Source: Styela clava (Eukaryota). Taken from it: 64,000 bases of DNA. Location of the stretch: NCBI RefSeq assembly GCF_964204865.1, contig NC_135253.1, positions 16,306,001 to 16,370,000 on the forward strand, in the 5' to 3' direction. A program made the position numbers. Below are positions 15,001 through 27,000 of the stretch, one piece after another. How positions within the stretch are numbered: position 1 is the stretch's first letter; the number at the start of each line of letters is the position of its first letter.

Positions 15001-18000
15001 CCAGTGTCATTTACTTGTAATACAACACTGCACTGTTACAAATTACATTTGGTATATATATAATTTCACAGAGCATATGAAACTACCAAAATTAGCAATC
15101 AATGATATTGATCTATAATAAATTATGTGTTTTAAAGCAAGTGATGTATATGAAGTGAGTGTTCCAATACCTGATTGTTCCATTTGGTGATCTCCACATT
15201 TTCTTCAACTTGAATTCTTCAACCCTATTCTCATCAGGAGTAATAGTTGCACATTTGATTCCAACATTATATTTCTTGATGGCTTCAGCAGCATCCACTG
15301 TTACTTTGTCATCTGTTTTGTCTCTGTATTCGATTCCCAAATCATAACTGAAGAGCAAAATAATGAATGAATATGTGTTAAAATGTGGGTCTGGTATAGT
15401 AGAGTACCACAGATACGACCAGCGGGCGTGGCTTATTAATTTTTGCTTATGTCATTCCTAACCCCCATCTGACTTACCCCAAAGTGTTTTCTAAAGAGTA
15501 TAAATAGAATAAGGTATAAATAGTATTTTATAATAATAATGTTCCAATCTACAACTGAGAATACTGGATTAAATTTAAAAAAAAAAAGAAACAAAACATG
15601 ATTAAGTAAACTTTTTCTGTGGTGTTAACTAGGCAAGTGCAGTTTTAAGTATTCTGTGGCATCTGCAGCTGCCGCAAAACCATGGCGGTATTTCCATACC
15701 ATGGCCGCTACGGCCAAACTCATGGCAACTGACTTTTTAGCTGCCACAAACCAATGTCGAGCTGCCGTTACCGCGGCAGCAAATTGAAAACCAATGGCAG
15801 GTAAAATTTTGCTGCCGTAACCGCGGCAGGTGGGCCGTAAAGACAGGGCTGTCTATTATTGTGACAAATATTGGGTAAGTTGGAACGTTTTTTTTATGGA
15901 TACAGTTTTGATTGATTTGGGGTTAGGGTTAGGGTTTAAGTAGATATAATTCCACATGATCAAATAAAATCTGGTACATTAATTTGTGAATATACCGTTA
16001 ATACTGATTACTGAATAGCGCTATAAAACCATGGCAAGAGCTGCCGCGGTTCGTTCGTGGCAGGAGCTGCCATGAAGTGGTAAGAACTGCGCCTCTAACT
16101 AGGAGTAAGTTAAAATTTATTGTGTTCATTACAATATAAAGCAGTTGATATATGAAATAGCTACTATAAAAACATTATCTTCATAGAATCAGAAGTATAT
16201 ATTATTAAAAGATAAGAAAGCCAAAGAATGATAAATGAGCTAGTAAAAAGTGTAAGCACAATTTTGCAAATGAAAAGGAATGGCATTAAAAAAGAATCAT
16301 TGTTATCTGAGGAACATGGAAACATAGAAATTTGTACAATTTAAAAATTGAGTCAAGCGCAACAAACAGAAGAATAAAAGATTGATTTACCATTTAATAT
16401 CAAGATCAACATATTTTAAAATGAGTTTTTCTTTGATTAATTCCCAGATAATTCTAGTCATTTCATCTCCAAGCACTTCCACAACAGTTCCACCTTGAAT
16501 TTTTCCCATGGTTGAGGATTAAAATATAATGATAGAATACAATATACAGCAAAAGAGATACAGTACCTAATAACCTATTCCCTACGAACAAATGAGGAAT
16601 AATTATTGGTTGAAATTGAAGTTTAATTGAATTAGATTTGGGTATGATACCGGTACTGTAATACTACAACTTTCACACTACACTATTCATAAATCTAAAA
16701 ATACCAATTAAAATAAGAATACCAATTAGAAGATTAGTGTGACCTGAACATTCGCCGGTTGCACCGTAATATTTCACACTATTGCTGAATTCCCATATGG
16801 TTGATTTTCCACACTTGATGCCAATCAATTCCCCTCCACGCCTTTCCGTCCTCGCAATCAATTCAAATTTCCGGACAACACTAAAAGGCTGAAGGAAGAA
16901 ACGGATGAAGTGGAGGGAAAACGGAAGTTGAAGTGTTCCCAAAGGTGAAAAATTAAAAAACACTAAAAGGCTGAACACTAAAAGGAAGAAGTGGATGAAA
17001 TTTCTTCCGACGGGTAGTTAGGTGGCTGAAGTCACTAAAAAGCTGAACACTAAAAGGAGGAGGTGGATGAAATATTTTCCGACGAATAATGAGGTGGTTG
17101 AAGTCACTAAAAAGCTGAACACTAAAAGGAAGAAGTGGATGAAATTTCTTCCGACGAATAATATGGTGGTTGAAGTCACTAAAAAGCTGAACACTAAAAA
17201 GAAGAAGTGGATGAAATTTCTTCCGACGAATAATGAGGTGGTTGAAGTCACTAAAAAGCTGAACACTAAAAGGAAGAAGTGGATGAAATTTCTTCCGACG
17301 GGTAGTTAGGTGGCTGAAGTCACTAAAAAGCTGAACACTAAAAGGAAGAGGTGGATGAAATATTTTCCGACGAATAATGAGGTGGTTGAAGTCACTAAAA
17401 AGCTGAACGGTAAAAGGAAGAAGTGGATGAAATTTCTTCCGACGAATAATGAGGTGGTTGAAGTCACTAATAAGCTGAACACTAAAAGGAAGAAATGGAT
17501 GAAATTTCTTCCGACGGATAATGAGGTGGCGGAGGTCACTGAAAAGCTGAACACTAACAGAAAGAAGTGGATGGAATTTCTTCCGACGGGTGGTGAGGTG
17601 GCTGAGGTCACTAAAAATCTAATCACTATAAGGAAGAAGTACGTTAGGGTTAGATGATATTTTGTCCTATCAATTTTGAGGTGGTTGAAGTCACTAAAAT
17701 ACCGAACATTGGGAGAGTTAAATAGCCAAAACATATCCCGACGGAAGTGAGATTGGATGAAGACCCTGAAAGCGGACTGATGAGTAGGCATGCCCCTTTT
17801 AGATTTATGAATTGAATCGATTCAAATCGCAATTTTTTTCGAATCTGATTTACGCGATTCGAAAGAAAGAGAGCCGTTTAGCGAAGAAAAACAAACACTC
17901 CAAATAACACCAATTGCCAGACGGGAATGTAAATGAATTTTTCGTTATTTACTTTTATTGATCTGCCTTCATTCATTTTCATGTTCAGCGCAACACACCC

Positions 18001-24000: not shown

Positions 24001-27000
24001 TTTAGTGTTTTTTAATTTTTAACCTTTGGGAACACTTCAACTTCCGTTTTCCCTCCACTTCATCCGTTTCCTCCTTCAGCCTTTTAGTGTTGTCCCAAAT
24101 TTCCTGCGTCGAGAGAAGCTTGATTACGCAACGTCACGACCTTTGGACTTAGGTTTCGTACTTCTGCAAGTCACGCTTACAACACGTTTTACTCACGCCG
24201 ATAGAATACACAAGGTCAGTCGTCGAAGTTAACTTCAGACTGTTGTCCTTTCCATCACCCGTTTTATGTGCCGCGGTCTCCATATAATTGAGCAGTATTA
24301 TCGGCTTTCTTATCCCGTGGGATATATTATAGGGCTATAGGCTACCGTAAGTCCAACGACTAACATACCAAAACCGCAACCAACGCTCGGCGTCTGCTCC
24401 ACCTTCATACGGAAAATATTCTAATTGTTCACTTTGATTTTTGAGTATGTTTTTCATGGATGATACGTATGTCCGATTTTGATGCCGCAGTTCCAAAATT
24501 TCTTATCGTAACTTGGATAGGGTATGCTCTGGACATTTATATAGAGGTAGCAAAGCCATGAGAACGGCTTACAAATGTATCGAAGCGTGCTTTCTCCAGT
24601 TAAAGAGTAAATATAACCTAAACGAGGCAACATTCGGACAACGGACGCCATTCTGAGATAATTGTGTTAATTGACAATGTCTATCATCTGATTCAAGAGC
24701 AGCGACTTGTTGGGATTTGACACTCCTATTAAAACACCCCCAATATTTTACTAATATATTAGGTAGAAAATATTTGAAAGTAGCATTTTCAAGAAAAATG
24801 TTAGCCGAACACGTTAATGTCCCAATGATGTTTGCCAAATCATTCACGGGGCTTCAAATTGCTTCTTAAGACAAGTATATTCATGCTAAGTTGCGTACAA
24901 AATAAGTTTTGAAATTCGACAATGGGGTTGCTCATGATGTCACAGATGGGAAGGAACTCGACTCGATAGCCGACTCACCTTCATTTATTAAAATTTAAAT
25001 GGCCGTTTCTTTTTTCACCTACCAACAGAAACAGATTTGTGTTAGTGTGTAGCAGGACTCTTGAATCACTTAGGATAGTTATTACATATCGATTTTAATG
25101 GGTAAGTATGTTGATAGGTATTTGGCTGTCTGTCTATATGTCTGTTAGATGCACAAGATATCTCACGAAAGCGAGATTGAGTCTGCTCCAGATTTTGCAT
25201 GTGCTTTCATCATATCTCGTACCAGAAACCTATTGATTTTGGGCAATTTATGTCGTATAATTAGCGAGTTATTAATTAATTAGTGATGGGACACAAAGTG
25301 TCAATATGGAGTAGGAGCGCTGTTTTGGGGGATCCCCTAACTTTCAATCGATAAGTCTTCGGTCTCTGACCGAGATTCTCGTTTTCACTCCTGCTACAGC
25401 ATTCTTGCATTATATGCATGCGGATCTAACCGCACAAAAGCATATATGAAGCAGCTCATTGGAAGCAGTTAGTCCCGTATAAGAGAAACAATCGATAACA
25501 CAATTCTGTTTCACACAAGTTGACAGTTCGACTGTAAAACTGTGGCCTATTGGACCTGGTCGGTCATGAGAATATTACCAGTTGTATTTGATTTTATTGC
25601 TTCTTCGCACAGGTTGCAATAAACGCACTTCGAGTCCGCAAAGGTTTTCGCGGGTGAGAAAATATACTCCAGATAAAAATCAAATACAACAGAATTGTAA
25701 CGAATTTCAAAATCGGAAATTCGCTGCAATTACGCGTTCGTTAAAAAGAGCCGACTTTTTCAGTGTATAATTGGCTTTCTGTCGCTCAATAATCAATCCA
25801 ATGTCTTTCTATATTAATTTATTTGTGTTCGTGGTAACTAGCGGTTGCGTCGACTTACGACAAGGTGAAAGCATTTCTTCTTTAAAATGCCAATCGGCAA
25901 TCTGTGAACGTAATAATGTGAGACTATATTGCCCGATTATATTTAATTTTGTTACATATTTTTGCGATCTTGCAAATTTGTTATCGTCGTTAGAAAAATC
26001 TCAATATCTGTTATAAATTTCCAGAAAGTACAACTTGATTCAGTACCTAATAATAATATATTTAAAATATATTAGTAAATGAAAAAATGAATATTCATCG
26101 CCTTGCTTTATTATTATTAATTTAATTGTGATCATGTTGGCGAAATAAAAGCAATAGGCTACTACTCAGAAAATATCATGACAATCCGTGGACACAAAAA
26201 TGCGTGGTAAAGGCCCGATTATATTTTGTTTTGATTCATATTTTTGTGAATTCAACAAATCTGAGCTGTTCGCACAACGCTTACTAGTACTGTACGGCGT
26301 ATCAATGTTGAGGCAGTATAGCAGGGGTCGGGAACCCATGGCTCGCGAGCCATATATGGCTCTTTTGGTGACGGCATATGGCTCTCAGAAAAATCTAATA
26401 TCCCAAGACTAAGCTTACTATTGTTACGAGATTTCAAATTCTTTTATAGCCAAATTTGGCAGGAAATTCCCAATACGTTTGAGAACGCGCGTCCAGCACA
26501 TGTCTATGTTATGTAAGATAATTACCAGACAGGCATTGTGACAAACAAGGGGATTCTGGAACATATATTGTGACATCACAGAGCGATAGAGTTTTCAAAA
26601 CACTACGGAGATGCCTAAACGAAAAAGGGTGATGAGTATCGTAGATTTCCACATTGGGCTGCAAGTGAGCAGTGAGTGTGTTGATTTTTGAGTGAACATT
26701 TCAGGCCTGATTAAGTGAAGAAATGTTATATGGCTCGCACGGAAATGCAATTGAAGATATGTATATTCTATGGCTCTCTTGACCAAAAAGGTTCCCGACC
26801 CCTGCAGTATAGCAAACAATCCTAAGGGAAGATGCCCTGGTAATTCAGTATGTTCCCCAGCTTTTCCCTTTAGGGGGGGTGTTTCAAAATTTAGGGGGGG
26901 GGGGGGTAAATAATTTTCGATTAGAGATAAAACTAGGCTATTTGTATTCTTAAAAAAATGGTATGTATTTAAGAAACGATGTACATGGGGGGGGGGGGCC

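What the first reader, a model, noticed from the sequence alone, without database searches (positions are those of the whole stretch)
16864..24104. Complete 7.2-kb Foldback transposon with satellite-like inverted arms just upstream of IDH1
Seen: a perfect 9-bp TSD (CAAATTTCC), about 100-bp near-identical terminal IRs, then oppositely oriented 72-bp tandem arrays around a roughly 3.8-kb loop filled with nested hAT MITEs. The motif CACTAAAA(A/G)G occurs in the terminus and twice per repeat unit. Established: long modular TIRs with 9-bp TSDs characterise Foldback/Mutator-like elements. Inference: a young non-autonomous element whose repeated motif is a transposase-binding site and which could form a large hairpin. 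It lies about 360 bp from the IDH1 start codon, so it may be in the IDH1 promoter, outron or 5' intron and could be polymorphic.
Basis: partly seen in the sequence, partly recalled or inferred. Interest (0 to 1): 0.68.

Follow-up and report, generated by a model that had tools for sequence, protein, structure and literature searches.

The report
Foldback-type transposon upstream of sea-squirt IDH1
A 7.2-kb non-coding "foldback" DNA transposon, whose two inverted arms are built from a 72-bp repeat, sits 363 bp upstream of the IDH1 gene of a Styela-like sea squirt; it is a clean new example of a known kind of mobile element rather than a new kind of thing.

Summary
A 7,223-bp element (16873-24095) is flanked by a perfect 9-bp direct repeat, CAAATTTCC. 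Its 88-bp terminal domains are 86/88 identical in inverted orientation. Opposed 72-bp tandem arrays follow, about 9-11 units on the left and about 35 on the right, around a roughly 3.7-kb middle domain that matches no protein family. CACTAAAARG occurs 83 times in the element and nowhere else in the window.

The host is a stolidobranch ascidian: one window ORF is 97% identical to Styela clava PPOX. The element lies between divergently oriented IDH1 (minus strand, ATG 363 bp away) and POLE2 (plus strand, about 6 kb away).

It is best read as a non-autonomous Foldback-like class II transposon insertion. Its architecture closely matches Drosophila Tetris and nematode Tm1.

Not shown:
- Superfamily: Mutator/Phantom is favoured, but Merlin also gives 8-9-bp duplications and 5'-GG termini.
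- Other genomic copies: no eukaryote genome could be searched.
- The motif as a transposase-binding site: it varies as much as the rest of the unit.
- Any effect on IDH1.

Only one nested hAT-type MITE is clean. This is a new member of a known kind, of modest interest.

The parts
16864..16872 (.). Left target-site duplication, CAAATTTCC
   Evidence: Read; exact-match positions.
16873..16960 (+). Left terminal (flanking) domain of the inverted repeat. It starts GGACAACACTAAAAGG. Bases 5-42 are 84% identical to the start of the 72-bp unit.
   Evidence: 86/88 identical to the reverse complement of 24008-24095.
16961..17640 (+). Left 72-bp tandem array: 9 recognisable units carrying a 4-unit higher-order pattern.
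   Evidence: TRF gives 9.4 copies at 89% match. Unit table. Lag-4 mean of 4.0 differences against about 7-10 at other lags.
17641..17771 (+). Left inner domain: two strongly degenerate units.
   Evidence: 17653-17771 aligns to the right array at 71.7%. Unit L10 differs at 43/72 positions.
17772..21498 (.). Middle (loop) domain, about 3.7 kb, with no coding capacity.
   Evidence: 0 of 29 ORFs of at least 45 aa reach a Pfam cut-off; best E = 0.013. No Rfam match above gathering score and no tRNA.
20133..20488 (.). Nested 340-bp hAT-type MITE (20141-20480). Termini are CAGTGGCCGGCAACC and CAGTAGTCGGCAACC. The 8-bp TSD ATCTATAG is at 20133-20140 and 20481-20488.
   Evidence: TIR+TSD scan and sequence read. 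A same-type MITE with an 8-bp TSD lies at 45410-45771.
18339..20132 (.). Pair of CAGTGATTTTCAACC-type inverted termini 1.8 kb apart, with no matching TSD. Possibly an older nested element.
   Evidence: (I5).
21499..24007 (-). Right 72-bp tandem array: about 35 units including two of 71 bp. It is highly homogeneous, and the innermost units are degenerate.
   Evidence: TRF gives 34.7 copies at 97% match for 21512-24007. Unit table. Mean 1.51 differences per unit and an exact 373-bp duplication at an 8-unit shift.
24008..24095 (-). Right terminal (flanking) domain.
24096..24104 (.). Right target-site duplication, CAAATTTCC.
16391..16509 (-). First coding exon of cytosolic NADP isocitrate dehydrogenase (IDH1-like). 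The ATG is at 16509-16507. Further exons run down to about 10259.
   Evidence: ORF translations. PDB phmmer hit to IDH1 residues 4-39 at E = 3.6e-14, against 1.5e-8 for IDH2. Iso_dh hits on five other exon ORFs. The exon's 3' end was read by eye from the GT.
29982..30698 (+). First recognisable exons of POLE2, the divergently oriented right-hand neighbour.
   Evidence: Dpoe2NT at 29982-30113 (E = 0.0028) and 30525-30698 (E = 4.9e-10). DNA_pol_E_B exons further downstream. PDB hit to POLE2 at E = 2e-18.

Best explanation
This is a non-autonomous class II (cut-and-paste) transposon with Foldback architecture, inserted as one unit into the IDH1-POLE2 intergenic region of a Styela-like ascidian. 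Each end has an 88-bp terminal domain followed by an array of a 72-bp repeat. That repeat looks derived from the terminal domain, since they share a 38-bp stretch that includes CACTAAAARG. The innermost units are decayed, and a non-coding middle domain separates the arms.

Inferred mechanism: a transposase encoded elsewhere binds the termini, probably also the reiterated copies of the terminal motif in the arrays. It excises the whole element and reinserts it with 9-bp staggered cuts, which gave the CAAATTTCC duplication. The 9-bp duplication and the long, internally repetitive inverted repeats point most strongly to a Mutator-superfamily (Phantom/Foldback-type) transposase.

The arrays then evolve like a small satellite by unequal exchange or slippage. 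The right arm looks recently expanded and homogenised, while the left arm keeps older variants. At least one hAT-type MITE has landed in the loop.

Shown: the anatomy, the TSD, the lack of coding capacity, the position relative to IDH1 and POLE2, and the array dynamics. Inferred: mobilisation in trans, the superfamily, and the motif as a binding site.
For: The perfect 9-bp direct repeat sits exactly at the ends of 86/88-identical inverted termini. Opposed 72-bp arrays are confirmed, with 775 nt at 94% complementarity. The motif is confined to the element, 83 inside and 0 outside. The terminal domain and the unit share 38 bp at 84%; Tetris shows the same relation, TIR-FD and TIR-220 sharing 37 bp at about 80% (PMC4079207 passages). 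No coding capacity was found in the loop, and no transposase domain in any of the ORFs scanned across the window. Tm1 and Tetris show the same combination of composite or unequal TIRs, 8-10-bp TSDs and non-coding copies. Tm1 carries a Phantom/MULE transposase (PMC3169594 and PMC4079207 passages). MULE TSDs are 8-11 bp, and the Phantom group includes a tunicate sequence (PMC6446971 passages). The arms carry private variants: the L01/L05 pattern is absent from all 34 right-arm units. Homogeneity also differs, at 1.51, 7.33 and 4.8 differences per unit within right, within left and between arms. These differences argue for a real, evolving structure.
Against: Only one copy was seen. No second copy of the terminus or the unit exists in the other 56.8 kb of the window, and no eukaryote genome could be searched, so mobility as a family is unproven. 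No transposase partner was identified. Merlin fits the TSD length and the GG terminus equally well. The motif is no more conserved than the rest of the unit. Neither the unit nor the terminus has unusual folding of its own, with z = +0.7 and -0.4. Searches for annotated 'proteins' made from the repeat, used as a proxy for other copies, found only noise. In one frame, 85 hits had E < 1e-3, none had E < 1e-30, and the best was 25% identical. In another frame there were no hits at E <= 1e-5.
Confidence: 0.85

Rival explanations
1. The anatomy is the same, but the element belongs to the Merlin superfamily, or another non-Mutator superfamily, whose non-autonomous derivative evolved foldback-like arms by amplifying a subterminal repeat.
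For: Merlin elements have 8- or 9-bp TSDs and a conserved terminal 5'-GG. They occur in Ciona intestinalis, and several families carry internal tandem repeats (PMC8101967 passages). This element starts with GG. Foldback structure is polyphyletic; for example, Galileo carries a P-type transposase (PMC3169594 and PMC4079207 passages).
Against: Reported Merlin TIRs are 24-462 bp, whereas these arms are 0.9 and 2.6 kb. The authors of the Tetris paper state that most foldback elements appear to belong to Mutator. A GG start is too short to be diagnostic.
Confidence: 0.2
2. It is a composite. Two inverted repeat arms mobilised, or now enclose, a piece of unrelated host or TE DNA. The 3.7-kb loop would then be cargo or later nested insertions rather than an original middle domain, and the ancestral element was a much shorter hairpin-like foldback.
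For: The loop has no relation to the arms. It holds at least one nested MITE with its own TSD and further MITE-type termini. The Tetris middle domain is described as variable in composition and size (PMC4079207 passages).
Against: Only 340 bp of the loop is a demonstrably independent insertion. Gapped self-comparison of the loop found no other long inverted pairs. This reading refines the best explanation rather than replacing it.
Confidence: 0.3
3. It is not a transposon. Either a local satellite array underwent an inverted duplication, or the assembly created a false foldback.
For: Only a single copy was observed. The long, near-identical 72-bp array, 97% over 2.5 kb, is the kind of sequence assemblers mis-size.
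Against: The non-repeat terminal domains end at the same base on both sides and are bounded by a perfect 9-bp duplication. The arms differ in length, in private variants and in homogeneity, unlike a chimeric palindrome. Both arms decay towards the inside.
Confidence: 0.04

Closest known systems
Tetris, a foldback transposon of Drosophila virilis (PMC4079207; passages read)
   Same: It has the same domain layout: terminal domain, array of tandem repeats, inner domain, and a variable non-coding middle domain. Its tandem repeat shares a 37-bp stretch at about 80% with the terminal domain, against 38 bp at 84% here. Its TSDs are 8-10 bp, no transposase is known, and its arrays behave as an emerging satellite.
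   Different: Tetris has a 220-bp unit against 72 bp here, its host is an insect, and no sequence similarity was tested. Several Tetris copies and free satellite arrays are known, whereas only one copy was seen here.
Tm1, a Mutator/Foldback family of root-knot nematodes (PMC3169594; abstract and passages)
   Same: It has composite TIRs made of tandem motifs with unequal numbers at the two ends, 9-bp TSDs, mostly non-coding copies, and TIR identity below 100% (mean 93%).
   Different: Tm1 repeats are 13-15 bp and its elements are 1-2.6 kb. Tm1 has an identified Phantom/MULE transposase copy; no partner is known here.
Drosophila melanogaster FB (Foldback) elements
   Same: They have long inverted arms of tandem subrepeats, arms of unequal length, a 9-bp TSD, and most copies are non-coding. 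This description is recalled, apart from the general account.
   Different: FB subrepeats are short (10-31 bp, recalled). Their link to a MULE-type protein comes from FB4, and no equivalent was found here.
Galileo, a P-superfamily foldback-like element (PMC3688188 abstract)
   Same: Its long TIRs contain tandem repeats that reiterate a transposase (THAP) binding site. This is the precedent for reading CACTAAAARG as a reiterated binding site.
   Different: Galileo gives 7-bp TSDs (recalled) and encodes a P-type transposase. The 9-bp TSD here does not fit.
Merlin superfamily (PMC8101967 passages)
   Same: It has 8-9-bp TSDs and a 5'-GG terminus, is present in ascidians, and some families carry internal tandem repeats.
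   Different: Reported TIRs reach at most 462 bp, and no foldback architecture is described in the passages read.

Membership tests
Foldback-like elements (structural class) | Long terminal inverted repeats composed of tandem subrepeats | tested here: met
   72-bp arrays in opposite orientation; 775 nt at 94% complementarity; unit table.
Foldback-like elements (structural class) | Modular arm (terminal domain, repeat array, inner domain) around a middle domain that usually does not code | tested here: met
   0 of 29 loop ORFs reach a Pfam cut-off.
Foldback-like elements (structural class) | Target-site duplication at the element ends (9 bp for Tm1; 8-10 bp for Tetris) | tested here: met
   Perfect 9-bp CAAATTTCC. 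Literature values.
Foldback-like elements (structural class) | A dispersed family: several copies with different TSDs | not testable with these tools
   There is no second copy in the window, and no eukaryote genome collection was available. The proteome proxy searches were negative.
Mutator / MULE superfamily (Phantom-Foldback group) | TSD of 8-11 bp, typically 9 | tested here: met
   9 bp; range from PMC6446971.
Mutator / MULE superfamily (Phantom-Foldback group) | An autonomous relative with the same termini that encodes a MULE DDE transposase (often with FLYWCH) | not testable with these tools
   No transposase domain was found in any ORF scanned in the window. The rest of the genome was not available.
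Merlin superfamily | 8- or 9-bp TSD and a terminal 5'-GG | tested here: met
   9-bp TSD, and the element starts GGACAAC. Criteria.
Merlin superfamily | TIRs of 24-462 bp and a DDE_Tnp_IS1595 transposase partner | tested here: inconclusive
   The arms are 0.9 and 2.6 kb, outside the reported range, although the non-repetitive terminal domain is 88 bp. The transposase partner is untestable.
P superfamily, Galileo-type foldback | 7-bp TSD (recalled, not taken from a call) | tested here: not met
   The direct repeat is 9 bp, and no 7-bp reading gives symmetric termini.
hAT superfamily (applies only to the nested MITE 20141-20480) | 8-bp TSD fitting nTnnnnAn (consensus recalled) and short TIRs | tested here: met
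   The TSD ATCTATAG is 8/8 identical and the TIR matches at 13/15. The sister MITE at 45410-45771 has the TSD GTCTAGAA.

The most novel reading that the evidence does not exclude
This copy belongs to a currently or recently active Foldback/Phantom-MULE family in a chordate lineage where MULEs are almost unreported. Its 72-bp arm repeat is seeding satellite DNA. The copy itself is an insertion polymorphism that separates the IDH1 core promoter from its upstream region. When transcribed or replicated it forms a hairpin of about 0.8 kb that draws small-RNA silencing or causes breakage at the IDH1-POLE2 divergent promoter region of an invasive ascidian.
Probability: 0.12. Interest if true: 0.55.

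Novelty: new member of a known kind. Interest (0 to 1): 0.3.

Why it matters
Foldback elements are known for causing rearrangements and for seeding satellite DNA, yet most have no identified transposase. My searches of the held literature found no paper that describes one in an ascidian: foldback + transposon + ascidian gave 0 papers, and foldback + Ciona gave 2 unrelated papers. One survey reports MULEs in chordates as a single Ciona savignyi sequence (PMC6446971). A structurally intact copy with a perfect TSD gives precise probes, the 88-bp terminus and the 72-bp unit. These can be used to find the family and its transposase in Styela genomes. Its place 363 bp from the IDH1 start, between two divergent housekeeping genes, makes it a convenient presence/absence marker and a natural test of how a 7-kb inverted repeat affects a compact tunicate promoter. 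None of this is surprising to a transposon specialist.

Tried and rejected
- Other copies inside the window. blastn of the terminus, the unit and the inner domains gave only chance-level hits outside the element, and the 23-bp terminus matched only its two ends.
- Other copies by proxy. I translated the open frames of the repeat and searched public proteomes for mis-annotated 'proteins'. phmmer with the 777-aa frame gave 85 hits at E < 1e-3, none below 1e-30, and the best was 25% identical, which I take to be low-complexity noise. The 511-aa minus-strand frame gave no hit at E <= 1e-5. Only 2 of the 5 open frames were tried.
- Coding remnants in the loop: none.
- RNA genes: no Rfam match above gathering score in 16000-30500 and no tRNA in the window.
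- Higher-order periodicity in the right arm. No consistent lag was found, only a 373-bp exact duplication.
- Extra conservation of the motif: not found.
- Local hairpins within a unit or the terminus: not better than shuffles.
- Gapped self-comparison of the loop for more nested TIR elements: nothing beyond short pairs.
- The sigma-70 promoter/terminator scan of the 363-bp spacer was a misstep. It is a bacterial model and says nothing about an ascidian promoter.
- The ORF at 26598-27095 between the element and POLE2 has no homologues and no Pfam match.
- The Phantom paper (Marquez & Pritham 2010) is not held, so what I say of it is second-hand.
- One literature search was badly framed and uninformative.
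- Exons of IDH1 and POLE2 were searched one at a time.
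Full report
**What is there**

I read the region directly. The sequence GGACAACACTAAAAGGCTGAAGG begins at 16873. Its exact reverse complement ends at 24095. These are the only two matches in the window, with none expected in shuffles. Immediately outside both ends lies CAAATTTCC, at 16864-16872 and 24096-24104. That 9-mer occurs four times on the + strand of the 64-kb window. 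With a GC content of about 0.36, I calculate about 7.5e-6 as the chance that the two abutting 9-mers are identical. The element is 7,223 bp long, or 7,241 bp with the duplications. The window contains no N.

**Arms**

- The first 88 bp of the two ends are 86/88 identical in inverted orientation.
- Inside them, Tandem Repeats Finder reports a 72-bp period on both sides in opposite orientation. The left array (16961-17640) has 9.4 copies at 89% match. The right array (21512-24007) has 34.7 copies at 97% match.
- The longest ungapped inverted pair is 775 nt at 94% complementarity.
- Cutting the arms into units gives, on the left, nine recognisable units with 1-10 differences from the right-arm consensus, then two badly decayed ones reaching to about 17771.
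- On the right there are 34 units with 0-4 differences, two of them 71 bp long, then one decayed unit ending near 21499.
- In both arms divergence rises towards the inside.
- Mean pairwise differences per unit are 1.51 within the right arm, 7.33 within the left arm, and 4.8 between arms.
- The left arm has a four-unit higher-order pattern: L01 equals L05 and L02 is close to L06, with a lag-4 mean of 4.0 against about 7-10 at other lags.
- The right arm has no regular higher-order period, but it does contain an exact 373-bp duplication at a shift of eight units.
- The L01/L05 variant pattern is absent from all 34 right-arm units.

These features describe two arrays that evolve separately by unequal exchange or slippage. 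The right one appears recently expanded. They do not fit an assembly chimera, which would give equal and identical arms.

**Motif**

CACTAAAARG occurs 15 times on + and 68 times on -. Every occurrence is inside the element, and there are none in the remaining 56.8 kb. It lies at bases 6-15 of the terminus and twice in every unit.

Bases 5-42 of the terminal domain are 84% identical to the start of the unit. The unit therefore looks like an amplified derivative of the terminus.

I tested whether the motif is under more constraint than the rest of the unit. Of 35 distinct variants among 41 units, 8 fall in the 20 motif positions. The expected share is 27.8% (p = 0.58). I dropped the degenerate units L10, L11 and R35 and the two 71-bp units before that count. 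There is thus no internal evidence for or against a binding-site role. Neither a single unit nor the terminus folds better than shuffled controls (z = +0.67, +0.73 and -0.37). Any hairpin would be a property of the whole arms.

**Middle domain**

Between the arms lie about 3.7 kb (17772-21498), or 3.87 kb by the TRF boundaries.

- None of the 29 stop-to-stop ORFs of at least 45 aa reaches a Pfam cut-off; the best E-value is 0.013.
- There is no Rfam match above gathering score and no tRNA.
- The loop shares nothing with the rest of the window except one 90-bp stretch at 77% (20882-20969 against 25962-25874).
- A scan for inverted termini with flanking direct repeats found one clean nested element. 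This is a 340-bp MITE at 20141-20480 with 13/15-matching termini and a perfect 8-bp duplication, ATCTATAG.
- Its terminus type, CAGTGG....CAACC, is over-represented in the window: 7 matches within 3 mismatches of CACTGGTTCTCAACC, against 1.14 expected.
- Those seven matches include a 362-bp MITE at 45410-45771 with the 8-bp duplication GTCTAGAA.
- Both duplications fit the hAT pattern nTnnnnAn, a consensus I am recalling.
- The loop also holds a 1.8-kb pair of such termini without a duplication (18339/20132) and one solo terminus (21175).
- Gapped self-comparison found no further long inverted pairs.

So 'nested hAT MITEs' is right in kind, but 'filled' is too strong.

**Host and neighbours**

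The 509-aa ORF at 58327-59856 (-) is 97% identical over its full length to the Styela clava protoporphyrinogen oxidase-like protein. The next hits, at 46-50%, are from other ascidians. The window is therefore from S. clava or a very close relative or haplotype. It is not human.

The IDH gene lies on the minus strand. Five exon ORFs match Pfam Iso_dh. The first coding exon ([23 protein letters not shown]...) matches residues 4-39 of cytoplasmic IDH1 at E = 3.6e-14, against 1.5e-8 for mitochondrial IDH2. Its ATG is at 16509-16507, so 363 bases separate it from the element.

To the right, the next recognisable gene is POLE2 on the plus strand. Dpoe2NT exons lie at 29982-30113 and 30525-30698. DNA_pol_E_B exons lie at 34315-34578 and 36609-36959. 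The PDB hit to POLE2 has E = 2e-18. The 166-aa ORF in between has no homologue.

The element thus occupies about half of a 13.5-kb gap between two divergently oriented housekeeping genes. Exons were searched one by one, and I built no joined model. Whether the element lies upstream of the IDH1 promoter or inside an outron or 5' intron cannot be decided from sequence. By eye there is a plausible 3' splice site, a pyrimidine run followed by AG, about 70 nt upstream of the ATG. I did not test it.

**Comparison with known elements**

The layout is terminal domain, repeat array, inner domain and a variable non-coding middle, with 8-10-bp duplications. That is how Tetris of Drosophila virilis is described, down to a 37-bp stretch at about 80% shared between terminus and tandem repeat (PMC4079207 passages).

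Tm1 of root-knot nematodes combines composite, unequal inverted repeats and 9-bp duplications with a Phantom/MULE transposase. Its authors stress that foldback structure is not evidence of common descent, since Galileo carries a P-type transposase (PMC3169594 abstract and passages).

For Galileo, footprinting showed that the tandem repeats reiterate the transposase-binding site (PMC3688188 abstract).

MULE duplications are 8-11 bp. The Phantom group includes a tunicate sequence, reported as the only good chordate MULE (PMC6446971 passages).

Against a simple Mutator label, Merlin elements have 8- or 9-bp duplications and always begin with GG. They occur in Ciona intestinalis and sometimes carry internal tandem repeats (PMC8101967 passages). 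This element begins with GG. Reported Merlin inverted repeats reach only 462 bp.

I put Mutator/Phantom ahead of Merlin, at roughly 0.55 against 0.2, but the sequence in hand cannot decide.

**What could not be done**

The decisive test is other copies with different duplications, together with an autonomous partner. It needs a Styela genome.

My only proxy was searching public proteomes with two of the five open frames of the repeat. It found nothing credible.

In the held literature I found no description of a foldback element in ascidians. The S. clava genome paper does not use the words foldback, Mutator or satellite in its main text. The original Phantom paper is not held.

**Verdict**

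The structural interpretation, a complete non-autonomous foldback-type transposon 363 bp upstream of IDH1, is well supported. The superfamily, the activity of the family, the role of the motif and any effect on IDH1 remain inferences. It is a new member of a known kind and of modest interest. Its value is as a handle for finding the family and its transposase in tunicates.

Noticed in passing
window 45402-45779: A 362-bp MITE (45410-45771) with termini CAGTGGTTCTAAACC and CAGTGGTTCTCAACC and a perfect 8-bp duplication, GTCTAGAA. It is the same terminus type as the MITE nested in the foldback loop. Termini of this type occur 7 times in the window against 1.14 expected.
   Followed up: partly
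window 51418-59856 and 4732-6954 (minus strand): Several long genes are uninterrupted single ORFs on the minus strand: CCDC142-like (1012 aa), BTB-BACK-Kelch (785 aa), protoporphyrinogen oxidase (509 aa) and a C2H2 zinc-finger protein (740 aa). By contrast IDH1, POLE2 and the sorting nexin are split into many small exons. This could reflect intron loss or retrogenes.
   Followed up: no
window 58327-59856: The PPOX ORF is 97%, not 100%, identical to the Styela clava reference protein. The window therefore comes from another haplotype or individual, or from a very close species. That suggests insertion polymorphism of the foldback element could be checked against the reference.
   Followed up: no
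window 20882-20969 and 25874-25962: A stretch of about 90 bp in the loop is 77% identical, in inverted orientation, to a stretch 1.8 kb to the right of the element. It is an unclassified short repeat shared by the loop and the flank.
   Followed up: no
window 20867-21074: A small cluster of direct repeats (43 bp at 88%; a 32-bp period with about 2 copies) and short inverted repeats (14/14 at 20826-20839 and 21039-21052). It may be another small TIR element in the loop.
   Followed up: partly
window 20064-20120: A perfect 24-bp palindrome and reiterated CGCGGAACACC motifs lie just inside the right terminus of the 18339-20132 pair.
   Followed up: no
window 16575-16590 (minus strand): A pyrimidine-rich run ending in AG about 70 nt upstream of the IDH1 ATG looks like a 3' splice or trans-splice acceptor. 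It was read by eye only.
   Followed up: no
window 38585-44339 (minus strand): A sorting-nexin-type gene, with PXA, PX and Nexin_C domains on separate exon ORFs. An RNA polymerase Rpb11-like exon lies at 3842-4222.
   Followed up: no
window 26598-27095 (minus strand): A 166-aa open frame between the element and POLE2 has no Pfam match and no homologue in the 5.8-billion protein set (lengths 91-291 searched). It is probably non-coding.
   Followed up: yes
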